Source: Mobula hypostoma
Lineage: Eukaryota
Assembly (NCBI RefSeq): GCF_963921235.1
Contig: NC_086097.1
Span: forward strand, 160,086,001-160,150,000
Direction: 5' to 3'
DNA: 64,000 bases
A program made the translations under genes and the position numbers. This document shows positions 7,106 to 61,756 of this stretch, piece after piece. Numbering within the stretch: position 1 is the stretch's first letter; the number at the start of each line of letters is the position of its first letter. The notes under the pieces are model-generated. The model did no database searches. It had not been told where the DNA came from and worked only from the letters and a program-made list of their open reading frames with translations.

Positions 7106-7913
7106 ATCCAGTAGTTTGTATTTCACTCCAGATTACTGCATTTGCAGTCTCTTGAGTTTCAATTAATTAATCCCCACCTATCCTATGCCATTTCTGTTGA
7201 GTAGAGAATGAAAAAGCTAAGTGGAATAATTTAGCTGAGCTCAAATGACAGAGACATCAAAATGAAATACAACTATTCATTTTGGTGTGATTGAACTAAT
7301 ATTTGCAATATGAAGAATTATCAATAATTTACAAAAATGTGATTAAAAATGTTAATTACAATGATGGGAATATGATAGCTAAAGTGCACATAATAATTGT
7401 GTTGTGACTGGAATCAATAATTCAGGGCACTATGATTGAAGAAGCATGATTAAAACAAAACAAAGATTCACTCGTAAAGTTACTTTAGGATGAAGTAGTA
7501 AATTTGATTCAAAATTGGCTTAGCAGGAAAAGTCAGAGTGGTGGTAGATAGTTGCCTCTTTGACTGGAGATCTTTGACTAGAGGTGTGCTGCAGGGATCA
7601 GTGCTGGGTCCATTGTTTCTTTATAATCTCTACTATATTAATAATAGTTGTTTGATAATGTGGTGCCCTGAATCAGCAAATCTGCAGATGATACAAAAAT
7701 TGGAGGTGTAGTTGATAGCAAGGAAGACTATCAAAGCCTACAGCAGGACGAAGGGTCGCGGCCTGAAACGTCGACTGTACCTCTTCCTAGAGATGCTGCC
7801 TGGCCTGCTGTGTTCACCAGCAACTTTGATGTGGGTTACTTGAATTTCCAGCATCTGCAGAATTCCTGTTGTTTGCGTTTTTAAAATTCACTACTGCGAA
7901 GCCTCTTCCGGTG

Positions 7914-8980
7914 ATGCCTACACTGAAGAAGTTTAAATCTTCTCTTCGACGGAGTTCAGTGAAACCATCTTTCACTGCTCCCCATCTGTAATTTCTTCGG
8001 CTCTTCAACTTTTCAACCACATTTTGACTCAGACTCGCTATCACAGCCATATATCCTTTCTTGGAACGTGCCTCCATCGCCAACTTACTCCAGTTGGCTT
8101 TAGGATTCGTTTCCGAGCCTCTCAATTTGGACCTTCTGAGGATCCCAGGTACTCACATTTTATTGACTCTGCCTCTCGTCGCTTCTCCCGTCAAGCTCTG
8201 AAGGCGACCCTCTCCGCCATGAGGAGTTGTTTGGTGTCCCTATCCCAGACCCTTGCACACCTTCGGGACACTTTCTTCACCGTCTGTAATGGTCCTACCC
8301 GTTATTTCATCCTCTGTCGGATTCACACCTGCAATCGCCGTTTTTTTGACTTTGTCATGTTAGGCAAAGATCGCAAGATTCTATATCTACGGACTCCAGA
8401 GCCCGCTGGCCATGAAACTAGCAGGCATGAACTTCAGATTGCGGCCCCTGCCATTGATCTCGCCGGCTCCAACACCTCAGGGCATATTCAAAATCCGGAC
8501 TCCAGCAACGACCATGGGCACCTTCAAAGCGATTGCGCAACCACCAACTGCGACTCCAGCCTTGAACTCCAGGCCGTGTCTTTATGTGCTGCTATTGTGA
8601 CTCCCGTCTCCCCTTCCCCCACCAATACTCTGCAATCCCGTCTCCTTCAGATCCCATCGTCAGCTCCTGGGTCCTCAGAGGCTCCATCTTCCTCTCACCC
8701 CAACCCTCCCCTCTCCATTGACACCCCCAGCCTCCCCCCTCTGATTCCAGCTCATCCGTGCCGGGTCTTTACCATCCCCTCAGACCTTCAACTGTCGGAG
8801 GCAGAACGCTCTGTCCGCAATAAGGGCCTCACCTTTGTCCCCCTTCGCCCACACCTCAGCGAGTTCTGTGTTCGCCACGATGCGGAACTCTTCTTCCGCC
8901 GTCTCCGTCTCCGAGCCTACTTCTTCGGCAAGGACTCTTCCACCCCCACCAATGACCCCTTCTCTCATCTTCAACCCTCC
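7914..8980 (+). pseudogene. N-terminal part of a PLE ORF, frameshift near 7952, truncated before the RT domain
   Basis: ATG at 7914 (MPTLKKFKSSLRR); one added base joins it to the frame of the 8024 ORF; the homologous copy near 47490 reads cgacgggagttt, which supports a 1-bp deletion here. Confidence 0.75.
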
Positions 8981-9017
8981 AGTCCTGACGAACGGTCTCG
9001 GCTTGAAACGTCGACTG
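8980..9017 (+). ncRNA. Minimal type I hammerhead ribozyme motif (stem II partly mutated)
   Basis: cagtc-CTGACGA-acggtctcggctt-GAAA-cgTC-gactg; stem I cagtc/gactg is perfect. Confidence 0.7.
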
Positions 9018-10716
9018 TACCTATTCCTAGAGATGCTGCCTGGCCTGCTGCATTCACCAGCAACTTTGATGTGTGTAGCAGGACCTGGACCTGCTGGAAC
9101 AATGGGCCAATAAATGGGAGATGGAATTTAATGCAGACAAGTGTGAGGTGTTGCACTTCAGAAGGACAAAACAGGGTAGGCTATACAAAGTGAAGGGTAG
9201 GACGCTGAGGAGTACAGTGGAACAAAGGGATCTAGGAATGTAGATCCATAATTCCTTGAAACTGGTGTCACAGGTAGATAGGATCATAAAAAGACCTTTA
9301 GGCACATTGCCTTCGTAAATCACAGCACTGAGAGAAGGAGATAGGATGTTATATTGGGGTTGTATAAAACATTGATGAAGCCAAATTTTGAGTGATGTGT
9401 GCAGTTTTGGTCACCCTCCTACAGGAAAGGTATCAGTAAGATTCAAAGAGTATCAAGAAAATATATAAGGATGTTGCCACGACTTGAGGATCTGTGTGAG
9501 AGGGAAAGAATAAACAGGTCAGGATTTTATTACTTGGTTGAAGGAGAATGAGGGAAGGTTTGACAGAGGTAAACAAAATTATGAGGGGTGTAGATAAGTC
9601 AGATTTTTACCCTAGGGTTTGGGGAGACCAGAAAGGGGTCATAGGTTAAAGGTGAAAGGTGAAATATTTAAGAGCTCCTGAAAAAAACTTCTTCACTCAA
9701 GATAGTGTGAATGTGAAATAAGCTGCCAGTGGAAGTAGTGGATGCAGGATTGATTGCAATATTTAATAGAAGTTTAGGAAAGCACATGGATGGGAGGGAT
9801 ATGTAGATCTATGAGCCAGGTGCAGGTGAATGGAACTGGGCAGAATAAGAGTTTGGCATAGGCTAGATGGGCCAAAAGGCCGGTTTCTGTGCAGTAGTGC
9901 TCGAGGACGATGACTATTGTTTCAGACAAACTTAGAGTCAGGGCAAATCACTTACCAAGCTGTGCTGGTCTCTATTTGATACGGGTAAAATTCTCATGGG
10001 ACTTGACAAGATAGATATAGAGTTGATGTTTGCTGAGCTGGGATGTTTAGAACCAGCAATAGTCTCAGAATGAAGACTCAGCTACTCAAGAATTAGAGGA
10101 TTGTGAACCTTTGAAATTTTCTGCCTCAAAAGACTGCAGCGGCTGTTACTATTTCAAAACAGATCACTAGATTTTTATATATTAATGAAATGAAAATAAA
10201 TGGAAATTTAGAAATTGAGGTTTGCTGAGGCTTGAAACCAATCATGATCTTATTAATGGAATGGACACGGGGGACCAAATGTCATTCACCTGCTTCTATT
10301 TCTTGATTCTTTACTTTAATAAAGTGAGGATACAGGTGATACTCCTGTGTAGAGTGAAGAAGCTGCAGATATGGGGAGTTTAAATACTCAAAGACACAAA
10401 CAAGTTGTCTTGAAGTATGTGTATAAAAAAAATTATCCAAATTATGCAAAGGAAGAAAATAGAAGCCAAGTTAATTTTATTTAGAATGGAATTCAATTTG
10501 TTATCACTGATTCATGACATTAAATCAATTGTTTTACAGCAGCAAAGTGTAAACTTAAAATTAATATAAATTACAAAAATAAATAAATATTGGCAAAAAT
10601 GGAATAATGAGATTGTGTCCATGGGTTTATGGACCAGAGAGATCAATGTTTCTATCATTAATTGAATTGAAATTGAGAGACTAATACTCTGTTACATTTG
10701 CAATATAATCACCTGT

Positions 10717-26653: not shown

Positions 26654-27037
26654 ATGTTTATTCTTTAAAACCGCAGTGTAATTATATATGGTGTGATATG
26701 TCAGAGTGGCACATGACACATAAGCTTTATCTTGGTACGTATGACCATAATGGATGGGAGAGTTATAGAGTGCTATGCTGTAGGTGTGGTTTGATGGACT
26801 AGGCAGAACAACCATTCTGCACAGACTAGATAGGCCAAAGGGCTTGTTTCTGTGCTAATGTGCTCTATGACCCTACCATAAACCGACTTCCGGTAGCGCT
26901 CATGGAGTGAAGTCGCGTTCTTGACTCGCTCCATTACCTCTGAGTTTTTTTTCTCTATGGTCAGCTATACTTTAATTAACCATTAAGGCATCAACTCTTA
27001 CAATACTTTGAATTAAACTGAATTCTCTGACAACTGG

Positions 27038-27937
27038 ATGGAACTTAGATCTGCTATGTCTAAGAACGGGAAAAACGGCAAGGATGGTAAACCTTCGGTT
27101 AAACTGAAAGGTATGGATCTCCCTCCGACTGAATCACCGGTGACTTTGAAAGCGATATCGGAGTTAATTCAGAGGGAAATTTCAACCTCTGTTAGGGAGA
27201 TGATTCGTACGGAAATTGCAGACTCTGTTAAAGACCTGATTCATACGGAAATCTCAATTAATCTCCAGAAAATTGCCGATTCAATTGATAAGATGCAAAC
27301 ATTTATTGCGGAACATCAGTCGGCTATATCTGATCTTCAAAAATTCGCGCAACAAAGTGAGCTTAAGATGGGGAAAATCGAAGAAACAATTAATGTAATG
27401 AAGAAGAAACGTGACTTTCTGACTTTTAAAAACTCAGACTTGGAATCTAGAATGCGACGGCAGAATTTACGAATGATTGGGGTGCGTGAAGCTGTGGAAT
27501 CTAACAACCCCATGAAGTATTTTTCTCAACTTTTAAAAGATGCATTCCCTACTGTATTTCCTGACCAACCACCGCTACTGGATCGTGTTCACAGAATCCC
27601 ATCATACTCGTCTAGGTCAGATAGACCTAGGCATGTTATCTTACGTTTTCATTACTTTCAAGACAAGGAGAGACTGTTTCGATTCGCTCGATCTAAAGGT
27701 TTCATTGATTTTTCGGATCTTAGGTTCCGATTCGTGGAAGATTTCAGTAAACCAATCTGGGACCAACGGGTTCGCTACAGATCTGTGATGTCGGAATTCT
27801 ATAAGATGGATTTAAGACCAGCGTTGCTGTACCCTGCAGGTCTAAGGATTCGCATGTCAGATGGAGTCCTTCGTTTTTTTGATTCTCCATCGGATGCCCA
27901 GAGTTATCTGGATCAACTTTCACCTTCAACATCTTAA
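27038..27937 (+). CDS. L1 ORF1p (coiled coil, RRM, CTD), 299 aa, intact
   Basis: DLESRMRRQNLRMIGV, LDRVHRIP, PRHVILRFHYFQDKE, FVEDFS and LLYPA motifs of L1 ORF1 (Transposase_22-type). Confidence 0.93.
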   Translation: MELRSAMSKNGKNGKDGKPSVKLKGMDLPPTESPVTLKAISELIQREISTSVREMIRTEIADSVKDLIHTEISINLQKIADSIDKMQTFIAEHQSAISDLQKFAQQSELKMGKIEETINVMKKKRDFLTFKNSDLESRMRRQNLRMIGVREAVESNNPMKYFSQLLKDAFPTVFPDQPPLLDRVHRIPSYSSRSDRPRHVILRFHYFQDKERLFRFARSKGFIDFSDLRFRFVEDFSKPIWDQRVRYRSVMSEFYKMDLRPALLYPAGLRIRMSDGVLRFFDSPSDAQSYLDQLSPSTS

Positions 27938-28654
27938 TTGCTATTTTTTTTAATTATCTCCGTTGATCAGAGGCTGTGAATTGGTTGGTTTTAACTTTTT
28001 CGTGCCCTATTTGGGCAGAAAAGTTTATTTTTGATTTCTTAATATGGTTGCTAAACTTTCTTTTCAACTGCGTCATTTCTTTCTTTTCCCAGGGGATTCT
28101 GGGTGGTTACTTCCTTTTTGTCATCTTACGTATTTCCTGTGTGGCCTTAAATTTTGTAGTTTTTTTAAATTTTATTCTGTTTTGCTTTTTATAACCACTT
28201 TATGTCAATAATCTTATTTTTTCTTGTTGTTGTGTTTATTCATGGGTTTGGGGTTTATTGTGGTTTTTTTTAATATATATTTTCTGGCTTTTGTTCTGTT
28301 GTGTGTGTATTTTAATTGAGTTACCTTTTTTTTATTTTTTTACTGTTTTACAATTAGCTGATCTTTTTCATATTTATACCTTTTTTTTAGGGAGCGTATA
28401 CCGGAAGTCATGGGGGTAGTTTTAGCGCTTGCTTCTTTCGGGCGGGTCTGCTTTAGATTTTGCCTTGGGGTCTTGGGGTGGGGGGTGGTGGGAGGGGCTT
28501 CACGTTTTAGTTTTTTTCTCTTTGGGCTATATACATTATTGAAGTACTGGTTGCGTCCTTTTTCCCGGTATCTTTCGTATGTTCTGTTTCCTCTCCGGGT
28601 TCGTGGGTCGAGCCTATCGTCAATCCTCCTTGTTGTGGGTTGACTTTAGGATTT

Positions 28655-31600
28655 ATGGAGTCTATTATTAATTTTGTCTCCTGGAATACTAACGGTCTTA
28701 ATCATCCTATTAAAAGGAAAAAAGTTTTTAAAGTGTTCCGGAGACTTAAAGCACAAATTTTATTTTTACAAGAGACCCATGTACGGAGGGGGGACAGACT
28801 ACGTTTTTTTAAATTCTGGAAGGAACAACAATTTCATTCGAACTCCAATGCTAAGATTCGAGGCGTCTCTATTTTTATAGATTCCTCAGTTACTTTTATA
28901 CAACAGGATATTATTTCTGATCCGAATGGTAGATTTTTATTGGTTAGTGGTTTACTATTTAATAAAAAAGTAGTTTTGGTTAATGTTTATGCTCCTAATA
29001 TGGATTGTCCGGAATTTTATAAATCATTGTTTAATCAGTTTCCGAATTTGAACGAGTTTTCATTGATCTGGGGCGGAGATCTTAATACCTGTTTGTCTCC
29101 AGCTTTGGACCGTTCGGCTCCTTTACGGACCTTACCTAATAAATCTGCAAATTTGATTAATTTTTTCCTTTCTGATTCTGGGGCGACGGACATTTGGCGT
29201 TTTCTGCATCCTCAGGAAAAAGATTTTTCCTTCTTTTCACATGTTCATCATTCCTATTCAAGAATTGATTATTTTTTTATTGATTCTCGTCTTATTCCTT
29301 CAGTGATTAAATGTGATTATGATTCTATAACCATTTCGGATCATGCTCCACTTAAGCTTTCTATTAAAATTATGGCCAATATACCAAATAATAGACAATG
29401 GCGTTTTAATTCGCTGTTGCTTCAGGACTCAGACTTTGTTAACTTTATGAATGAACAGATTGAGCTTTTTTTTACAATTAACCATACAGAGGATATTTCG
29501 GTTAACACTCTTTGGGACACTTTTAAAGCCTATATTCGGGGTCAGATTATTTCGTATTCTGCTGCTTTGAGGAAGAAACAGAAGCAGGAGGAGATGGCAA
29601 TTGTGGACAAGATTAAAGAAATTGATAAGAAATATGTTATGGCTCCTTCTGAGGAGTTATACAAACAAAGAACTGAACTTCAAATGGAACACAGTTTACT
29701 ACTCTCGTCCTCGATTGTAAAGCAATTAAAGAAAACAAGAAGTGACTTTTATGTTCACAGTGACAAAATTGGCAAGCTGCTGGCTAATCAATTGAAATCT
29801 AATTATGTTAAATCTCAAATCAATCAGATTTATAACCAAAATGATCGATTGATACTGGATCATGTGGGGATTAATCAAACCTTTTGTGATTTTTATTCTT
29901 CTTTATATCAATCAGAGTCTCCTCGAGATTCTAAATATATGAATGATTTTTTAGATAAGTTAGACTTCCCTCAGATTTCACAGGATATGTCTTCTTTATT
30001 AGATACTTCCATTACAATGGATGAGATTAAGAATGTTATTTTTTCTATGAATCTGGGGAAAGCTCCTGGCCCGGATGGGTTTACCGTTGAATTTTATAAA
30101 TGTTTTGCTTCTTTATTGATCCCTTGGCTCTGTAGGGTTTTTGAGGCTTCTTTGAAACTTGGTAAACTTCCTGAATCTTTTAATAGAGCATCAATTTCTC
30201 TAATACTAAAGAAGGATAAAGACCCTGCTCAATGTGCATCTTATAGACCAATATCTTTATTAAATGTTGATTCTAAAGTTTTTTCTAAGTTATTAGCAAA
30301 TAGACTAGAAAAAGTACTTCCTTCTATTATTTCGGAAGACCAAACGGGTTTTATTAAAGGTCGTTACTCTTTTTATAATATTCGTACATTGTTAAATATC
30401 GTTTATACTCCCTCACAAAATGTTCCTGAGTGTGTTATTTCTTTAGATGCCGAGAAAGCTTTTGATAGAGTAGAATGGCCTTATTTATTTAAGGTGCTTG
30501 AAATGTTTAATTTTAGCTTGAAATTTATATCCTGGATTAAACTGTTATATCATTCCCCTGTAGCCTCGGTTCGTACTAACTCTTTAAACTCACCTTTTTT
30601 TCCTCTCTTTCGAGGTACTCGACAAGGCTGTCCTCTTAGTCCCCTATTATTTGATATTGCATTAGAACCTCTTGCAATTGCTATTCGAGAATCTTCAAAT
30701 ATTACTGGGATAACTCGGGGATTAAAGTCCCATAAATTATCACTCTATGCTGATGATTTACTTTTATATATCTCTAATCCTGAGAAATCCATTCCTGCTG
30801 TTTTAGAGTTATTAGCACAATTTGGTTTTTTTTCAGGTTATAAATTAAATCTTAGTAAGAGTGAACTTTTTCCGATTAATAAACATCTTCCCTTATATTA
30901 TAAATTTCCATTTAAATTGATTAATAATTATTTTTCATATCTTGGGATTAAAATTACTTGTAAATACAAAGATTTATTTAAGACTAACTTTTTACCATTA
31001 ATAGACCATATTACTCAACTTTCATCTAAATGGTTTCCCTTATATTTAACTTTGATTGGTCGTATTAATGCAGTTAAGATGTTTTTTTTGCCAAAATTTT
31101 TATATGTGTTTCAGGCATTACCAATTTTCGTTCCAAAATCTTTCTTTGATAAAGTTGATTCTAAAATTTCTTCATTTATTTGGCAGAATAAGAATCCGAG
31201 ACTGGGTAAAATACATTTACAGAAAGCTAAGAGAGATGGAGGTTTAGCATTACCTAACTTTAGATTCTATTATTGGGCTATTAATATTCGACATATGAAA
31301 TTTTGGTTACTTGATCAGGACATACTATCTATTCCTAAATGGGTAGCATTGGAACTACAATCTGTTCAGGGTTATACACTTGGCTCTATTTTAGGCTCCT
31401 CTCTCCCTTTTGATTCGAAACGCCTTAAGCAGGTCTCTAACCCGATAGTTAAATATGCTTTGCGCATTTGGTTTCAATTCAGAAAATTTTTTGATCTTAA
31501 TCAATTCGGGTTAGCGATTCCTATTTTAGGTAACATATTTTTTCCTCCCTCTTTTACGGATCGCGCTTTTCAAACTTGGAAGACTAAGGGTATTTTACGG

Positions 31601-32430
31601 TTTTTGGATTTATTTTTAGATGGTTCCCTTATGTCTTTTGAACAATTATCTAATAAATATAACTTATCAAGAATACATTTTTTTAGATATTTACAAGTTA
31701 GAAATTTCCTAAGTACTATACTTTCTTCCTTTCCAATGCTTCCTCCTACATATATTTTAGATTCGATAATTAACCTCAATCCATGTCAGAAAGGTGCATC
31801 GGCTATGATTTATAATATTATTATGAAACTTAGGAAAGCTCCATTTGATAAGATTAGGGTAGATTGGGAACAGGAGTTGGGGCTTACCATTTCTGTGATG
31901 ATTGGGGGCAGATTTTACAATTAGTTAATACTTCCTCTATTTGTGCTAAACATTCCCTAATTCAATTTAAAGTGGTTCATAGAGCACATATGTCCAAAGA
32001 TAAGTTAGTGCGTTTTTACTCGCATATTAATCCTTTCTGTGATAGATGTTCGGGGCAGAGAGCCTCTTTAACTCATATGTTTTGGTCTTGCCCTACTTTG
32101 GAAACTTTTTGGAGAGATATTTTTAATATTATTTCTAAGGTATTAAATATAGATATCTCTCCTCACCCTATTACTGCTATCTTTGGACTACCTAAAATTT
32201 CTAGTAATCTTTCCCCTTCAGCCTGTAGAATGATTGCATTTCTTACTTTAATGGTGAAAAGATGTATTTTACAACATTGGAAAGAGCTTAATGCTACAAC
32301 TACCTTTTTTTGGTTTTCTCAGACGATTTTATGTTTGAATTTGGAGAAAATTAGAAGTAACCTTTATGATTCTTCATTTAAATTTGAACAGATTTGGGGA
32401 CCTTTTATTCGATATTTTCATTTAATGTAA
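28655..32430 (+). CDS. L1 ORF2p (APE endonuclease, RT, Cys-rich C-terminus) with one frameshift near 31895
   Basis: SWNTNGL, LQETH, GGDLN, SRIDY, SDH (EN); KAPGPDG, YRPISLLN, SLDAEKAFDRV, RQGCPLSP, LYADD (RT); CDRC...HMFWSC continues in the 31864-32430 frame. Confidence 0.95.
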
Positions 32431-40520: not shown

Positions 40521-43500
40521 AGTTCAATACACTTTCCCACTTAGCTCTTTAACATACTGCATTCATTCATTTCTGTTTGAAGAATAGTCGATCCTGGCCT
40601 ACCATCATCTTTAGGTAAGAAACATTTCTACTGAAGCTAAGTATTTTCAGTCATCTTTTTCTAAAGGTTAACTTTGAATAATATGCCGAGGATAATGGAA
40701 ATAATATTCCTTTGAGTGATTATTTTACCTCCAGGAATTAACGTGTGCCTCTCTTGCCAAATGATTTTCTTGTCTTATCTGATGAGTACAATAGAGTCAT
40801 TTCTTCATATTGTTATAACAGAGTTGATCTCCATCTGTTCTACATTTTCCCACTGGTGTCCTTGATCTGTTAGTGAAGACAATGTTAGCAGACCCTAGAG
40901 CATTCCACAATTCTGAAGACAAAGTTTTGTAATTTCTTTCTTGGAGAAGGAGGGTGGAATCCGAATACTGCTGGCAAAGCTAGCATCTCTGTTCTGCATC
41001 ATTTATTTCCCTGGACATTGGGGTGGTGAGCTTCCTTCATGAACTGCTGCAGTCATTCTGCATAGAGGTTCCAGGATCTAGTCAAATGATGGCAATATAC
41101 TTCCAAAGCAGGATGGTGTACGACTTGGAGAGGACTTCTGTAGTGTTTATGCTGACTGCACCCCACAGAAGCTCAGCTGTAACCTGCCACACGAAGGATG
41201 GATTTCTCCCCCTCTGTGATTCAGCTCACTGGAAAATAGTGGACGATCTTAGTATACCATTTTACTAAGGATACATTATTTTATTGGAGATAGGCCTGCT
41301 CAATTTGGCTCTCACTGTAGGCTGTCAGGATACCTCCAAAGGTAGAGTTTTGCTAAAATGCCAGGGATAATGAGCACAGCAACTTCGCATTAATCATTTT
41401 ATCCACCACAGTGATCTTTTACTTTCAAAGTAAATGTTAAAGATAAGGTAGTTGGATTTTGATGCTTCATTGCCCACTCGAAGGTAACTTGAATATGCAA
41501 TAACGCATCAAAATCTGACCACTTTCAATTTAAATATTAAACAGACCTTGTATAATTGATGAAGAAGTAAATAAATAAGTGACACAATTAATTTAATTCA
41601 ATATTTGCTGAAGAAATCCTTCAATCTAGCTGCTTACAAGGAAAACATCAGAAGGTCACAATCTATTCCTTTGTCAACAACTTTTCAATAAATGGTGTCT
41701 GTATTATTTCAATTCTTATCAATGAGAGAGTTACTCTGTCCAAAATATATAACATTCCAGATTGAAAACAGCCATATCATTGTAACTATCACTGCCCAAT
41801 AATTGTTGTGGTCATTCTGATGTGGATAACTTATCACATTGAAAAATTGGCCATTGTATACAGCATGTAACTTTATTAAAATATTTTTTGTTTGTTCAGT
41901 AATTGGTTACCTTAGGAATTAATGAAATCCATTACACTTGTATTTAGAGAGAACTTTTGACTTTTGACTGAGTTTCTAATGAACCAGGTATCTTGTCCCA
42001 TGAGAAAGAAAAACAGGGCTTTAAGATTTCGCAGAATTTTGAACGAGTACTTCTTTGTATTGAGTTAGGAAAAAAACTTTTGATTCTTAACTGGATCTCT
42101 AATGAGTTAAACACAAAACTTCCCTTTGAAGAATGAAAGCTGAGGGTAACCTCATTGGGGAATTTTAAATTAATCACAGTTTTGGATTGAGTGAATACTG
42201 AGAGGATATTTTACATTGCAGGGCAGCATCATTAGAGATGAACAAATTGAGATAGTTACCAAGAAATCATATGCAGAATGCAAAATACCCATTAACCCGA
42301 AGAGTAGCAAGAACATCAACTTACTACCAAGGGGAGCAACTGAAGCAAAGAGTGTAGATGCATTTAATGGGAGGGGTTGGTTGAACAGTAAATAAAAGAA
42401 AAAGGAATAGATGGTTAAAGTTATAGATTTGGATGAGGAAAGAAAAGAAGCTTGACTCATCACAAACACATGTGGATAGATCGAGCCTAAGTCTATAGGT
42501 TTGCATCTTAACTGATCATTCGAACTGTAAACCATCGCTTTGTGATATTAATATATTTTTTATCTCTCCATTACCACAATATGATCTGCTGGTCATATCC
42601 TACGGTTATGCACTTTACCACAACCTATACTCCCATGAAATTATTATTACTCTCTAACAGTCACTATCCACCAGTATTTTGCCCTATATCAACTCAATCC
42701 AATCCTGCCTTCTCCATATCACAGATATGCCCCTTGTCCTATTTATCTCTGCCCATCTTCCCTACAACTTAAAACTAATTTGGTTTTCCATCATTCCAGG
42801 TTTTGATGAAGGGCCTCTGACCAGGAACATGAATTTTGTTTCTCTGTACGTTGATACTACCTGACCTGCTGAGTGCATCCAATATTTTCTGCTTCATCTG
42901 CTGCTTTCATACTTGTGATCTGCACATTCCTTTTCTGTGTTACACATCCAATGTAAACTGATGGAATTTTTATGTATAGCTCCTGCACCTACGGCAGACA
43001 TGATCTTTGATCTCTTGTGCTAGGTGATACACATGCAGTTGCAGTCAACCTCCATATATGCAAAATCTCAAAAGATACAACAGTATAGAAATGAGTACAA
43101 CCAGATGACCAACACTTGAACAAGAAACCAGAGATAAACTTCTCCCCCATTGAAATAAACGTACCTTTCTATAACAACTATGGAATCACAGAAATATATG
43201 GTTAAGGAGCAAGTCATTCTTCATATTGTACATATGTAAACTCTTTAAAATGAATTATATTTTTCATGCTGTAACACTCTTCTTTTCAATTACTTAATTG
43301 AAGCAGAATCTTTCTCCCTCACAATTTCCATAGGCAATTGTCCTTGTTAAATCACCATACTACAAAATAAAAATAACACTCCAATTATTTAGAGCAGCAG
43401 AACCTTGACAGCAAACTGCAGGATATTCAAGCCTCTGTGTATGATGACTTATGTTTATTTTTGCCTGAGGAAGTAAGGAAGAGCAAGAAACACATAGATT

Positions 43501-43606
43501 TATAGACACAAACACGAGGAATTCTGCAGATGCTGGAAATTCAAGCAACACACATCAAAGTTGCTGGTGAATGCAACAGGCCAGGTAGCATCTCTAGGAA
43601 GAGGTA

Positions 43607-43644
43607 CAGTCAACGTTTCGGGCCGAGACCCTTCGTCAGGACTA
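43607..43644 (-). ncRNA. Minimal type I hammerhead ribozyme motif (intact core)
   Basis: Minus strand agtc-CTGACGA-a-gggt(ctcg)gccc-GAAA-cgTT-gact. Confidence 0.8.
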
Positions 43645-43940
43645 ACTGAAGGAGGAACTAGTAAGAGATTTGAAAGTGGGAGGGGGACGGGGAGATCCAA
43701 AATGATAGGAGAAGACAGGAGGTGTAGGGATGGAGCCAAGAGCTGGAGAGGTGATTGGCAAAAGGAGTATGAGAGGATCATGGGACAGAAGGCCCAGGGA
43801 GAAGGAAAAGGGAGTGGGGGGGAATCCAGAGGATGGGCAAGGGGTATAGTCAGAGGGACAGAGGGAGAAAAAGGAGAGAGAGAGAAAGAATGTGTATTTA
43901 TAAATAAATAACGGATGGGGTACGAGGGGGAGGTGGGGCC

Positions 43941-44267
43941 TTAGCGGAAGTTAGAGAAGTCAATGTTCATGCCATCAGGTTGGAGGCTACCCAGACGGAA
44001 TATAAGGTGTTGTTCCTCCAACCTGAGTGTGGCTTCTTCTTTACAGTAGAGGAGGCCGTGGATAGACATATCAGAATGGGAATGGGATGTGGAATTGAAA
44101 TGTGTGGCCACTGGGAGATCCTGCTTTCTCTGGTGGACAGAGCATAGGTGTTCAGCAAAACCATCTCCCAGTCTGCGTCGGGTCTCGCCAATATATAGAA
44201 AGCCACATCGGGAGCACCAGACGCAGTATATCACCCCAGCCGACTCACAGGTGAAGTTTTGCCTCAC
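43941..44267 (-). pseudogene. PLE GIY-YIG endonuclease domain (left arm)
   Basis: GVIYCVWCSRCGFLYIGETRRRLGDGFAEH...EEQHLIFRLGSLQPDGMN. Confidence 0.9.
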
Positions 44268-44659
44268 CTGGAAGGACTGTCTGGGGCTCTGAATGGTGGT
44301 AAGGGAGGAAGTGTAAGGGCATGTGTAGTACTTGTTCCACTTACAAGGATAAGTGCCAGGAGGGAGATCAGTGGGGAGGGATGGGGGGGACTAATGGACA
44401 AGGGAGTTGCGTAGGGAGCGATCCCTGCGGAATGCAGTGGGGGGGGGGAGGGAAAGATGTGTTTAGTGCTGAGATCCTGTTGGAGGTGGCGGAAGTTACG
44501 GAGAATAATATGTTGGACCCGAAGGCTGGTGGGGTGGTAGGTGAGGACCAGGGGAACCCTATTCCTAGTGGGGTGGCGGGAGGATGGAGTGAGAGCAGAT
44601 ATGCGTGAAATGGGGGAGATGCGGTTGAGAGCAGAATTGATGGTGGAAGCTATCTGGGT

Positions 44660-45512
44660 TATTCCTCTTCTCACCCTGTCTCTTGCAAAAACGCCATCCC
44701 CTTCTCGCAATTCCTCCGTCTCCGCCGCATCTGCTCTCAGGATGAGGCTTTTCATTCCAGGACAAGGGAGATGTCCTCCTTTTTTAAAGAAAGGGGCTTC
44801 CCTTCCTCCACTATCAACTCTGCTCTCAAACGCATCTCCCCCATTTCACGCGCATCTGCTCTCACTCCATCCTCCCGCCACCCCACTAGGAATAGGGTTC
44901 CCCTGGTCCTCACCTACCACCCCACCAGCCTCCGGGTCCAACATATTATTCTCCGTAACTTCCGCCACCTCCAACAGGATCCCGCCACTCAGCACATCCT
45001 TCCCTCCCCCCCCCCCGCATTCTGCAGGGATCGCTCCCTACGCAACTCCCTTGTCCATTCGTCCCCCCCCATCCCTCCCCACTGATCTCCCTCCTGGCAC
45101 TTATCCTTGTAAGTGGAACAAGTGCTACACATGCCCTTACACTTCCTCCCTTACCACCATTCAGGGCCCCAGACAGTCCTTCCAGGTGAGGCAACACTTC
45201 ACCTGTGAGTCGGCTGGGGTGATATACTGCGTCCGGTGCTCCCAATGTGGTCTTCTATATATTGGCGAGACCCGACGCAGACTGGGAGATCATTTTGCTG
45301 AACACCTACGTTCTGTCTGCCAGAGAAAGCAGGATCTCCCAGTGACCACACATTTTAATTCCACATCCCATTCCCATTCTGACATGTCTATCCACGGCCT
45401 CCTCTACTGTAAAGATGAAGCCACACTCAGGTTGGAGGAACAACAACTTATATTCCGTCTGGGTAGCCTCCAACTTGATGGCATGAACATTGACTTCTCT
45501 AACTTCCGCTAA
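44660..45512 (+). pseudogene. PLE RT thumb/linker plus GIY-YIG endonuclease (right arm, frameshifted)
   Basis: FFKERGFP, RVPLVLTYHP, Cys-rich linker CKWNKCYTC (Neptune-like) and VIYCVRCSQCGLLYIGETRRRL. Confidence 0.9.
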
Positions 45513-45813
45513 TGCCCCACCTTCCCCTCGTACCCCATCCATTATTTATTTATATATACACATTCTTTCTCTCTCTCTCCTTTTTCTCCCTCTGTCCCTC
45601 TGACTATACCCCTTGCCCATCCTCTGGGTTTTTCCCCCGCCTCTCCCTTTTCCTTCTCCCTGGGCCTCCTGTCCCATGATCCTCTCATACTCCTTTTGCC
45701 AATCACCTGTCTAGCTCTCGGCTCCATCCCTCCCCCTCCTGTCTTCTCCTATCATTTTGGATCTCCTCCTCCCCCTCCCACTTTCAAATCTCTTACTAAC
45801 TCTTCCTTCAGTT

Positions 45814-45850
45814 AGTCCTGACGAAGGGTCTCGGCCCGAAACGTCAACTG
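45814..45850 (+). ncRNA. Minimal type I hammerhead ribozyme motif (one stem I mismatch)
   Basis: agtc-CTGACGA-a-gggt(ctcg)gccc-GAAA-cgTC-aact. Confidence 0.75.
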
Positions 45851-47301
45851 TACCTCTTCCTAGAGATGCTGCCTGGCCTGCTGCGTTCACCAGCAACTTT
45901 GATGTCTGTTGCATAGATTTATAGAGTGTTCTTTCCCATATTATGCAGGATATTCCATAATACAAGTTTGAACTAAATGAAGTAGCTTGAAGTATAGTTT
46001 CCACTCTTCATTAGCTTTCCCTGTGGGTCTCTTACATCACCCTTTCATGTTCTTATCAGTTCTATTATTCTGTAAAAAGTGAGTGAATGTGATTCAATGA
46101 GACTGTGGTGCAGATCTCCAGAAGCAAGTTGAAGAACATTTATTAATGTGTGGCAATGCTTTTTTTCACCCAAAAGCTTTGAAATCGTGGGGTTAGGTGA
46201 CAGACATCATGAAACAAACACTTCCAGCATGTAACATTACTATCTATTAGTGGCAACTAGTCTTTGCTACAGTTATCATGGAAAATGCATGAGCTATTTA
46301 TGCAATGATGAAAAACCTCTTTTCACTTTGTGTTTCTCGTAAGAAGCTTGTCACTGTATATATATTTTGCTCTCCCATGTGAAAGCAACAATGTGATACA
46401 GGGAACAAGGCATTGTCTCGATGGCATTAGCTTACACCTCAGTATCCAAATATAGATAATGCAAATGAATTATGGCTAGTAGGGTGTTTTTCACTGATTT
46501 ACCAGGTGGGTGCTTGACTAGATAATCCCTACAGACATCTGCCAGGGAAAGAAAACAGCTGGCATATTGTCTTTGCTCTGTTTCAGCTGCAGTTAAATGT
46601 AACCTGGGCTCATAGAACAGAATTAATCTTTCTCTGAATGCTAACTTGCAGAATTAAGAAGTGAAATATGTATGATCTAAAGGCATGGCAGATAATAGGT
46701 TTATATTGTGACTGTTCAGTAATGATTAGTTGTCACTGTGTTAACAGAGGAGAGCTATATAGTTTGATGGTGAAGGAAAAGGGAAAATACTTTCTCAAGT
46801 GGGTGATCAAGAACAAACTAAAAATTAAAGCTAATTGATTCAGTGATGCCAAGAACTGCACTCAAATTACATTGAAAATCTGTTATTTTCTCATTTGCTA
46901 GGGCAATTAAAATTTTCAAACCAATAAAAAGATCTAACAAAAATATATTAAACATTACAAAAGAGTTACAACACAGATAGCCAATTGAACAATGAATAGG
47001 AAACAGATCCAGGCATGAGCATTAGTTTTCTGTCAGCATTAAGAAAATATATTAGGCAGTGAATTATTCTAAGTTCATCACTTGGAGCATTTGAACTCTG
47101 ACGCTTAAAATTTTATTGGCATTTGCCAAGACAAGTTAAAGACTAACAGTGTGGGGAACCTTTTGGCATTTTATCTGAGGACACACTGTAAGAAATAGAG
47201 CAGTGCAGCTTCTAATGAATGAACTCCTAAACTGGGGTGGGTGGAGCGCAGTGGGATTTGCAATAAGAAAGTTGAGCGAAATCCAAGGATAGAGGAAGGT
47301 T

Positions 47302-54420: not shown

Positions 54421-56045
54421 ACCATAAGACCACAAGATATAGGAGCAGAATTGGGCCACTTGACCCATCGAGTCTGCTCCACATTTCATCATGGACAATC
54501 CAATGTTCCTCTCAGCCCCAGTCTCCTGCCTTCTCCCTATATCCCTTTATGCCCTGACCAATCAAGAATCTATCATCCTCTGCCTTAAATATACACAACG
54601 ATTTAGCCTCTACAGCTGCCTGTTGCAAAGAATTCCATAGATTCACCACCTTCTGTCATAAGGCGGTGGCTCGGAACGGACCCAAGTTCAAGACACAGAC
54701 ACTGAAGTACTAGGGACAGGACTAGGATACAGGGAGAGGGCAAAGACATGGACATGAAAACCGGGTACCCGCAACAGGACTGGACAAGAGAGCTAGGAGC
54801 CCGAGCTTGGACTCCGAGCCAGAGACTGTTCAAGGACCCAGTACCTGGGTCTTGCCTCTGGCTCGGACCCCAGAACTAGGCAAGGGTGAGGCTTGGCTGG
54901 CAGGCAGGATGAGGCTGGAGTCTTCAGGCTTGAGGCTAGAGACTAGAGGCTAGGCTTGGCAGGAGGCAGGAGGCTGGAGTCTGCAGGCTTGAGGCTAGAG
55001 GCCAGAGACTTGAGGCGAGGCTTGGCAGGGGGCAGGAGGCTGGAGTTTTCAGGCTTGAGGCTACAGGCTAGAGACTTGAGGCAAGGCTTGGCAGGGAGTC
55101 TTCAGGCTTGAGCCTAGAGGCTAGAGACTTGAAGCAAGGCTTGGCAGGAGGCAGGAGGCTGGAGACTTGACTGGAGGCCGGAGGCTAGAAGCTCCTCCTG
55201 GGCAGGGCGTGGTACTCCTGGGCAGGGCGCGGATCACCACCCGACAGAGGAAAGGGACAGGATGGGGCAGAACCAACCGCAGGTAACGGCAAGATGGCCT
55301 GGCTTACCTGACGGAGGCAAGGGTTAGGAAGGGACAGAACCAACCGTAGGTAATGGCAATACTGCCTGGCTTACCCAACGGAGGCAAGGGACAGGAAGGG
55401 ACAGAACCAACCGCAGGTAACGGCAAGGTGGCCTGGCTTACCTGTCAGAGGCAAGGGACAGGAAGGGAGCTAGGTAAGGGTGGCTCCAGGACAAGACTGC
55501 AGGCGAGACGAGGCGTGAGTTACCAGCAAGACAAGGCAAGGCTTCAGGCAATGCAAGTCGAGACAAGAACTTCAGGTGAGGCTAGAGTTACCGGCAAGAC
55601 AAGGCAAGGCTTCTGGCGAAGCAAGGCAATACGAGAACTTCAGGCAAGGCGAGGGTTACTGGCAAGACAAGGCAGGGCTTCAGGCAAGGAAACAGAAGGC
55701 AGAGGAAGAGATACAAGGAGTAAGGACAAGAACAATCCAGCGGCCACACCCTGGTCTCAGAAGGTATTTATGCAGTCAGCCCCAATGAGCATCAGCTGTC
55801 TCAATTAGAGCTCAACAAGAACAGAAACATGGTAGAAAGGAAAACCTGGAGCAAGGGTCGATGGACTGGACCGTGAACCGGAATACGGACTGCACGGACC
55901 AGACCGGACCATGACACCTTCTGGCTAAAGAAAGTCTTCTTTATCTCCATTCTAAAAGGATGCTCCTCTATTCTGAGGCTCTGTCCTCTGATATTAAACT
56001 CTCTCACCATAGGAAGCATCCTCTCCTCATCCACTCTATCAAGGC
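54421..56045 (-). mobile_element. CR1 3' fragment hosting a solo LTR
   Basis: CR1 sequence ...ttcaccaccttc|tggctaaagaaa... is continuous once 54654-55921 is removed. Confidence 0.85.
54654..55916 (-). mobile_element. Complete solo LTR (1263 bp) with 5-bp TSD and internal tandem repeats
   Basis: TGTCAT...ATGACA termini; TSD ccttc at 54649-54653 and 55917-55921; TATA-like cataaata on the minus strand. Confidence 0.9.
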
Positions 56046-60899: not shown

Positions 60900-61088
60900 G
60901 CAAACAACAGGAATTCTGCAGATGCTGGAAATTCAAGCAACACACATCAAAGTTGCTGGTGAACGCAGCAGGCCAGGCAGCATCTCTAGGAAGAGGTGCA
61001 GTCGACGTTTTGGGCCGAGACCCTTCGTCAGGACTAACTGAAGGAAGAGTGAGTAAGGGATTTGAAAGCTGGAGGGGGAGGGGGAGAT
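60900..61088 (-). mobile_element. Solo PLE 3' terminus with 11-bp TSD; hammerhead GAAA mutated to AAAA
   Basis: Near-identical to 43507-43700; TSD gcaaattaagt at 60889-60899 and 61089-61099. Confidence 0.9.
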
Positions 61089-61756
61089 GCAAATTAAGTC
61101 ATCAATCTAAAATGCAGCACTGAGTTTAGTTCTGTTAACTATTTTCTGAACTAGAATAACAAAGTATGGAATTCTCAGAGCCCCTTAACCCTGGCCTAGA
61201 CATTGAATATATTTTTAGACTAACTGATGTATTTCTATTTAATGGGATCTGTTTTGGGGCAATGGATGAACTCAGGGCACTGAAAATTTGTCTAAAACAA
61301 TTTACATTTAACACAACAGAGCAAATCCCTGTTTGCAGGACTATCACTCAAGCCATCTCACAGAAAGAAGTGGAGCTACTTGAACTGGGTGTATCTTGCT
61401 GAGTGAATGTTTGTGTCTCTTCTAATTTAGCTTTAAGGATATAAAAAAAATCAGAAAGTCCTTGCAAACTGTAGCCCCTCAACTTCTGGCTCCACTCCAG
61501 TTGCAGAGCTATGATCTTGAACCACCTTGCATGGGCAGGGATAAAATGATTATTTCCCTGGTAAAGCAACTTCTTCTGGATATCCCTCAATGCAAATGTA
61601 ATAAACAGGACAAGGCAAACATAATCTTTATAACTATGAGCAGAGGATCAATTTTAAGTAAAGGTATAAAAGAAAGCAATAATGTTACTACAGGAAAGGA
61701 TGGCACTTTAGTTAAAATGTCATATTAATGTCATATACAACAGCCTTTTCAATATT

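What the first reader, a model, noticed from the sequence alone, without database searches (positions are those of the whole stretch)
7750..9076. Retrozyme-like non-autonomous mini-PLE: ORF N-terminus between two hammerhead repeats
Seen: one TSD-flanked unit consisting of a hammerhead repeat, about 1.07 kb of ORF N-terminus with no RT or endonuclease, and a second hammerhead repeat. The two predicted cleavage sites are about 1.24 kb apart. Inference: cleavage at both sites would release a unit-length, possibly circular RNA mobilised in trans, as for retrozymes, but here still carrying coding sequence. The upstream hammerhead of this copy is 5'-truncated, so the copy itself is probably inactive.
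Basis: partly seen in the sequence, partly recalled or inferred. Interest (0 to 1): 0.7.

Follow-up and report, generated by a model that had tools for sequence, protein, structure and literature searches.

The report
Penelope mini-copy from template jumping
This shrunken jumping gene has a join found nowhere else in the genome, yet dozens of sibling copies have the same layout with their own joins, likely because the copying enzyme runs off the front of an uncut RNA and jumps to its far end, a testable clue to how Penelope elements and their small ribozyme-bearing parasites arise.

Summary
The unit is real: 8-nt TSD, two minimal hammerhead repeats, predicted cut sites 1,240 nt apart, 1,067 nt of ORF start. 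It is a Neptune-type Penelope-like element lacking about 2.27 kb (RT, endonuclease, 3' UTR). The copy looks dead: ORF frameshifted at codon 13, both ribozymes damaged. The layout, however, recurs: 36 of 82 sampled copies retaining the ORF start are minis, with 36 different junctions (a further 8 copies gave none). No junction lands at the cut site (+33); 13 land at the hammerhead's front edge (-3..+1), as this one does, and the upstream end almost never passes the landing point (1 of 29, 16.7 expected). Best reading: reverse transcription starts in the tail, runs off an uncut RNA's 5' end and jumps to its 3' end. One short (310-nt) sibling does recur at two loci, retrozyme-like. No RNA evidence was obtained. 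This scan noted run-off at the hammerhead edge before, here and in other genomes, and single shrunken copies elsewhere.

The parts
7742..7749 (+). left target-site duplication (8 nt); its last 3 nt also match element positions +7..+9
7750..7873 (+). upstream pLTR, 5'-truncated at +7/+10 (+1 = first base of hammerhead stem I); hammerhead lacks stem I 5' arm, C3, U4; predicted cut after 7772; includes the 34-nt tail to +133
7874..7913 (+). rest of 5' UTR
   Evidence: alignment with L058-L060
7914..8980 (+). N-terminal 1,067 nt of the PLE ORF; family ATG at 7914; one-base loss at 7951-7952 gives a stop at 7989-7991; stop-free frame 7937-9193 remains in the other phase
8980..8981 (+). blunt junction (0 nt microhomology, no filler) from ORF position +1249 to +1; about 2,272-2,278 nt of the parent missing
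8981..9076 (+). downstream pLTR starting exactly at +1; minimal type I hammerhead 8981-9016 with intact core letters but broken stem II; predicted cut after 9012; ends at the first tail site (+96..+99)
9077..9084 (+). right target-site duplication
7545..7741 (+). host: decayed LINE RT fragment, left part (CR1-like by recalled motifs GVLQGSVLGP and ADDTK)
9085..9240 (+). host: decayed LINE RT fragment, right part
   Evidence: RVT_1, E 0.03, weak

Best explanation
This is a dead, single-copy mini-insertion of a very abundant Neptune-type Penelope-like element, likely made when the parent's reverse transcriptase began at the tail site behind the hammerhead, ran off the 5' end of an uncut, prematurely ended RNA and jumped to that RNA's 3' end. 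Shown: the layout, the TSD, the unique blunt junction landing at +1, the damage, and many siblings with other junctions. From the literature: start of reverse transcription at internal tail sites on uncut RNA (in vitro, a Poseidon element, PMC11167929). Inferred: that +1 is an RNA 5' end (probably the transcription start), that the RNA ended at about +1249 inside the ORF, that the jump was end to end, and that the second pass stopped at +7..+10 near the same end. The two hammerhead repeats would thus be two copies of one RNA segment, and cleavage would play no part. The same jump on a full-length RNA would give the normal two-pLTR element.
For: (a) Class: 36 of 82 loci holding the ORF start are minis, 36 distinct junctions; my search found exact flanking repeats of 10 nt or more at 18 of 35 non-edge loci, all different (no control run for TSD length). 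(b) Landing: 9 of 36 exactly +1, 13 in -3..+1, 0 in +28..+38; P about 2e-15 against a uniform spread over -300..+45; 8 of 10 long minis, the class of this copy, land in -3..+1 against 5 of 26 short ones (P 0.0013). (c) In 1.2 Mb of evenly spaced genome, 14 of 44 family copies end 5' within -10..+10, 22 times the upstream rate per base (P 4e-13), and 1 ends at +33. (d) The upstream end passes the landing point by more than 5 nt in 1 of 29 minis where 16.7 are expected from 26 non-mini copies; it coincides with the landing (3 nt or less) in 7 of 34, shuffled mean 1.8, and in 3 of 21 with landings away from the hot spot, shuffled mean 0.5, P 0.008. (e) L291 has 8 A's right before +1, as at a polyadenylated RNA end. 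(f) Microhomology is 0-2 nt or replaced by short fillers in 35 of 36; the one case with 14-20 nt of microhomology (L341) is the clear breach of rule (d), as a DNA deletion would be. (g) 3' ends cluster at about +99 and +133, matching the two-site tail initiation of PMC11167929.
Against: All evidence is from genomic copies; no RNA end was observed. A reverse-transcriptase stall at the hammerhead's folded edge would give the same +1 pile-up, and for this copy rule (d) cannot tell the two apart. The 8 loci fetched as a prospective check were all long copies (0 of 8 minis), so the predicted sizeable share was not met there and the other predictions went untested; 44% is an upper-leaning figure from top-scoring hits (19 of 28, 10 of 27, 7 of 27 in the three sets). 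Landings upstream of -3 show no purine preference (C 8, A 3, T 3), so they do not look like transcription starts, and no cap-derived G excess was shown (3 of 18 fillers). Tandem siblings repeat the same junction at each turn (L255, L261, L278, L287, L289), which a sealed circle or later DNA duplication explains as well as repeated jumps. The internal-start result comes from another PLE clade.
Confidence: 0.6

Rival explanations
1. Stall and skip on a longer RNA: RT starts in the 3' pLTR tail, stalls at the 5' edge of the folded hammerhead and re-anneals at an internal ORF site of the same or another full-length RNA.
For: Explains the +1 landing and the +7..+10 upstream stop of this copy without a special RNA; 5' ends spread over -25..+27, not one base.
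Against: Does not predict the A-tract in L291, nor coincident ends at -33, -89 and -39; internal re-annealing would be expected (inference) to use more microhomology than the 0 nt seen here; no ORF to 3' UTR pairing near +1249 (58 of 100 shuffles as good).
Confidence: 0.2
2. DNA-level deletion of 2.27 kb from a full-length pLTR-ORF-pLTR copy after insertion.
For: Unique junction; microhomology deletions occur in this family (L341; L062 with about 9 nt) and in other PLEs (PMC3846280, passages).
Against: A repair deletion has no reason to end at +1, yet 9 of 36 siblings do, and their upstream ends obey rule (d).
Confidence: 0.1
3. One reading: a retrozyme-like family whose unit RNA is released by hammerhead cleavage at both ends, circularised and mobilised in trans.
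For: The family motif can form a double hammerhead with 18 of 18 canonical pairs (L058); circles from cleaved PLE RNA were proposed in PMC4209133; one 310-nt sibling with intact motif letters occurs in tandem at two loci with different TSDs.
Against: This junction is unique; so is that of the long sibling L270; no tandem repeat here; a cleaved-circle route needs a parent mini that was not found; 4 of 18 pairs of the upstream-downstream dimer are non-canonical.
Confidence: 0.05
4. The truncated RNA was covalently circularised end to end by a host ligase (not at the ribozyme cut) and copied more than once around.
For: Identical junctions at each turn in 5 tandem siblings and in inverted arms of L260 and L322.
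Against: A sealed circle gives no reason for cDNA to stop at the seal, yet ends coincide with it above chance.
Confidence: 0.05

Closest known systems
EN+ Penelope-like elements, Neptune clade, with minimal hammerheads in both pLTRs (PMC4209133; PMC8557442)
   Same: Direct pLTRs with min-HHR (palindromic ACGU in place of helix III, extra base after A9), single RT plus GIY-YIG ORF in the parent, CX4CXXC linker, 34-nt optional tail, inverted pLTRs, TSDs.
   Different: This copy lacks RT, EN and 3' UTR; minis with private junctions make up a large share of copies that keep the ORF start, which I did not find described in the papers read.
Poseidon PAc of Anolis, internal initiation of reverse transcription (PMC11167929)
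   Same: 3' ends at two tail sites; uncut RNA as template; protein-binding region near the ORF start, which every mini keeps.
   Different: That paper assumes a multi-copy mRNA and does not describe a 5'-to-3' end jump in the main text I read; other clade; ORF starts downstream of the hammerhead here.
Non-LTR retrozymes of animals (PMC7229834; bioRxiv 10.64898/2026.07.22.740005)
   Same: PLE-derived, type I hammerhead, non-autonomous; the short siblings (232-512 nt units for 18 of 20) fall near the 150-450 bp monomer range and some are tandem.
   Different: This unit is 1,240 nt, single, 54% GC, holds ORF sequence, has damaged ribozymes and no sister loci; junctions avoid the cut site.
R2 SIDEs and R2 template jumps (PMC3414825)
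   Same: Internally deleted derivative keeping ribozyme and end; RT jumps from the 5' end of one RNA to another RNA end.
   Different: SIDEs are amplified families from rare events, and the authors favour recombination; here junctions are mostly private and recurrent.

Membership tests
EN+ PLE, Neptune clade (parent family) | single ORF with RT and C-terminal GIY-YIG | tested here: met
   L065: RVT_1 E 6e-4 and GIY-YIG E 0.002, below curated cut-offs; absent from this copy
EN+ PLE, Neptune clade (parent family) | CX2-5CXXC Zn-finger-like linker between RT and EN | tested here: met
   CKRNKCYTC in L065 and L067; feature shared with Nematis per PMC8557442
EN+ PLE, Neptune clade (parent family) | RT phylogeny groups with Neptune | not tested
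   no tree built; vertebrate PLEs were Neptune or Poseidon in bioRxiv 2026.07.22.740005 (passages)
EN+ PLE, Neptune clade (parent family) | pLTRs, partial tandems, inverted pLTR, 30-40 bp tail | tested here: met
Minimal type I hammerhead (PMC4209133) | conserved core, short helices I and II, palindromic 15.2-16.2, dimer folding | tested here: met
   family majority carries all core letters in 60 matches; double-hammerhead pairing canonical for L058; not met by the two copies at this locus
Minimal type I hammerhead (PMC4209133) | self-cleavage | not testable with these tools
   needs in vitro transcription
Non-LTR retrozyme | [quoted passage not shown] | tested here: not met
   one unit; upstream core lost, downstream stem II broken
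Non-LTR retrozyme | amplified family sharing one unit sequence | tested here: not met
   met by the 310-nt sibling at two loci
Non-LTR retrozyme | short (150-450 bp), low-GC, non-coding monomer | tested here: not met
   1,240 nt, GC 0.54 in 8001-9000, ORF-derived
Non-LTR retrozyme | circular RNA produced by ribozyme cleavage and ligation | not testable with these tools
   no run on record as RNA; contigs only

The most novel reading that the evidence does not exclude
Penelope-type RT routinely copies from the tail to the 5' end of an uncut RNA and jumps to its 3' end. That single step would build the pLTRs of full-length copies and, on truncated RNAs, mint hundreds of private mini-elements; the short ones with intact hammerheads occasionally re-amplify (310-nt unit at two loci), so this genome would record retrozymes being born, without ribozyme cleavage defining their ends.
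Probability: 0.35. Interest if true: 0.7.

Novelty: new variant of a known kind. Interest (0 to 1): 0.45.

Why it matters
How PLEs acquire their pseudo-LTRs and tandems, and whether the hammerhead cut defines the template, are open questions (PMC4209133 proposes cleaved circles; PMC11167929 finds uncut RNA is the main substrate and leaves later steps unvalidated). The mini-copies give a large natural record that separates these models: junctions land 32 nt upstream of the cut, never at it. They also suggest a concrete route from PLEs to animal retrozymes. The locus itself is a dead copy with no sign of function.

Tried and rejected
Rfam: no hammerhead family matched. Monomer folding gave no hammerhead-like or unusually stable structure for 4 of 4 stretches (z -0.39 to 1.11), as expected for a dimer-type motif. 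Junction search at 2 mismatches: 26 matches against 18 for the control; none of the 25 others had ORF joined to the hammerhead. Splicing as the cause: the missing part has no GT..AG ends on either strand (sequence, read by eye). Sequencing runs: no RNA holder listed; four RNA-guess runs are contigs and say nothing on ends or circles. A run X1 contig with 0 differences covers 8951-9023 at depth 7.9 (flank contig 10.7), but has 30 letters on the left, one short of the tool's bar, and X1 may be the assembly's own sample; an X5 contig over 8935-9007 with 6 differences is unresolved. Long-range RNA pairing as a guide for short-mini junctions: weak duplex signal (3 of 100 shuffles) but the fold puts no helix near the junctions (P 0.47). 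Cap-derived G and purine-start tests negative (that walker was thrown off by indels at 6 loci, for which values are used). One search was mis-aimed (ORF-only piece) and served only as a list of further loci. The prospective check was cut to 8 loci and none was a mini. No protein homology search, tree or structure prediction was run. Supplements of the papers were not opened; they could hold junction data bearing on novelty.

Full report
Setting. The window lies at G000:C1:160086001-160150000 in a 3.48-Gb genome; the repeat content looks like a cartilaginous fish (recalled, not tested). Positions written +n count from the first A of the hammerhead's stem I (window 8981 = +1); the predicted cut lies between +32 and +33.

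Observation. The unit 7750-9076 is flanked by the 8-nt duplication AGCAGGAC inside a decayed LINE RT fragment; 10 of 12 host relatives hit by both flanks show exactly this overlap. The two repeats differ at 7 of 87 positions, and the body differs from the per-site majority of relatives at 53 of 1,231 sites (4.3%), so the copy is old. Cut sites are 1,240 nt apart. The parent unit is 3,518 nt in L060 and 3,512 nt in L059, with RT, a CX4CXXC linker and GIY-YIG: a Neptune-type PLE by the linker criterion of PMC8557442 (passages read). About 2.27 kb is missing here. The family is abundant: 49 hammerhead-tail copies and 2 copies spanning the junction site in 1.2 Mb of evenly spaced stretches, roughly 140,000 and a few thousand genome-wide (the second figure is very rough).

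State of this copy. The family ATG is at 7914; the other loci listed with this region (6 distinct) read on in frame, while this copy lacks one G at 7951-7952 and stops at codon 26. An assembly error in the G run is not excluded. The hammerhead is of the minimal, dimer-type kind (PMC4209133, results and discussion read): 60 family matches carry all core letters as majority, and an intact copy forms a double hammerhead with 18 of 18 canonical pairs. Here the upstream copy has lost C3, U4 and the stem I arm, and the downstream copy has two stem II changes; 4 of 18 pairs fail in their dimer. Cleavage at either site is unlikely (inference).

Is the junction amplified? No. One exact match in the genome; at up to 3 mismatches in 29 nt, this locus and one other place, L103, which holds no ORF-to-hammerhead join at the match; 29 of 29 best other copies of the 201 nt before the junction continue into the ORF. 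A junction-spanning DNA search found a near neighbour with its own join 4 nt further on plus filler (L073) and a diverged stub without ORF (L075) among 40 scored of 2,122 candidates.

But the layout recurs. I took the top 30 loci from three searches with ORF-start pieces, dropped the window itself (2 rows), the reference locus L060 (1) and duplicates (L262, L288, L290, L326, L337), leaving 82. Three loci first called mini (L311, L323, L324) carry an internal 200-nt duplication and were moved to non-mini. Of 82, 36 join an ORF 5' piece directly to the 3' UTR or hammerhead (19 of 28, 10 of 27, 7 of 27); the rest run to the locus edge or end in the ORF. All 36 junctions differ. 'Continues' means only to about +1,700-1,900. 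Eight further loci fetched as a prospective check were all long, which lowers the share to 36 of 90 and left my written predictions on landings untested.

What the junctions say. Landings: 9 at +1, 13 in -3..+1, one at +11, the rest to -292, none near +33. Long minis such as this one land at -3..+1 in 8 of 10. The same spot is where ordinary copies end: 14 of 44 in the even sample, 22-fold above the upstream rate. If the template had been cut by the ribozyme, RT starting at +99 or +133 would run off at +33; it does not. The upstream end of a mini passes its own landing in 1 of 29 cases against 16.7 expected, and coincides with it above chance even away from the hot spot (L261, L266, L300). L291 has an A-tract at the join. 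L341, with long microhomology, breaks the rule and looks like a DNA deletion. These patterns fit a linear RNA with a fixed 5' end that is copied from the tail to that end, then from its 3' end round again. For this locus: start at +96..+99, run to +1, blunt jump to +1249, stop at +7..+10 using 3 nt of target microhomology. Tail initiation on uncut RNA is shown in vitro for a Poseidon element (PMC11167929, main text read); end-to-end jumps are known for R2 (PMC3414825, passages). That +1 is a transcription start is inference: Penelope has an internal promoter in its pLTR (PMC2377424, PMC8557442, passages), and TTAGTCC fits the recalled initiator pattern YYANWYY; a stall at the folded hammerhead remains the main rival.

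A 310-nt sibling (ORF about +310 joined to -1, intact motif letters) stands as a 4-fold tandem on C2 and with the junction twice on C50, with different TSDs and starts away from the junction: re-mobilisation or a shared circular template. The join +304 to +1 occurs at three loci with different TSDs, but +304 also joins -15 at a fourth, so independent recurrence at two hot ends explains it as well. The long sibling L270 is unique like this copy.

Literature. Searches; in the texts and passages read I found ribozymes in both pLTRs, retrozymes as PLE derivatives (PMC7229834 passages; bioRxiv 2026.07.22.740005 parts 1 and 3 of 5 and passages), single internally deleted PLE copies and template jumps invoked for inserts (PMC3846280 passages), but no description of recurrent minis with landings at the hammerhead's front edge. 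Most subscription papers are outside the library, so this is limited. Earlier scan notes report the run-off at the hammerhead edge in this and other genomes; I had noted that idea before seeing them, and they are not independent support.

Verdict. Observation confirmed; amplified, cleavage-released retrozyme not supported for this junction; the locus is a dead member of a recurrent class that bears on the PLE replication mechanism. New variant of a known kind, interest 0.45.

Noticed in passing
L289 (G000:C2:157815471-157818571) and L346 (G000:C50:58411256-58414355): Same 310-nt mini unit with intact hammerhead letters at two loci with different TSDs, tandem at both; the best candidate for a true retrozyme-like derivative.
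   Followed up: partly
L350, L351, L352, L349: Junction +304 to +1 at three loci with different TSDs; +304 to -15 at a fourth; ORF ends pile up at +290..+310 (8 of 36), suggesting a preferred RNA 3' end.
   Followed up: partly
short minis among L255-L322: In 20 short minis landing upstream of -5, a later ORF end goes with a more upstream landing (Spearman -0.79, P 4e-5; -0.71 without the two extremes); predicted folding does not explain it.
   Followed up: partly
L105-L133: About half of 29 tail-selected loci are head-to-head pairs, typically one arm ending near +99 and the other at +133, joined near the hammerhead (read by eye).
   Followed up: no
window 43499-45920: Large head-to-head insertion of the same family (EN region and 3' UTR in both arms, 92-95% complementary).
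   Followed up: partly
window 60900-61093: Short reverse-strand stub of the same family, -57..+133.
   Followed up: partly
L311, L323, L324, L358, L018, L077, L084: Shared internal duplication of about 200 nt (+815..+1023) in the Pro/Ser-rich ORF region: probably a subfamily mark.
   Followed up: no
window 27017-27937 and 28511-31924: L1-type element with open ORF1 piece (Transposase_22) and a 1,137-aa open ORF2 (endonuclease plus RVT_1), possibly young.
   Followed up: no
window 54910-55713: Three adjacent tandem repeat families (about 66-68-nt units).
   Followed up: no
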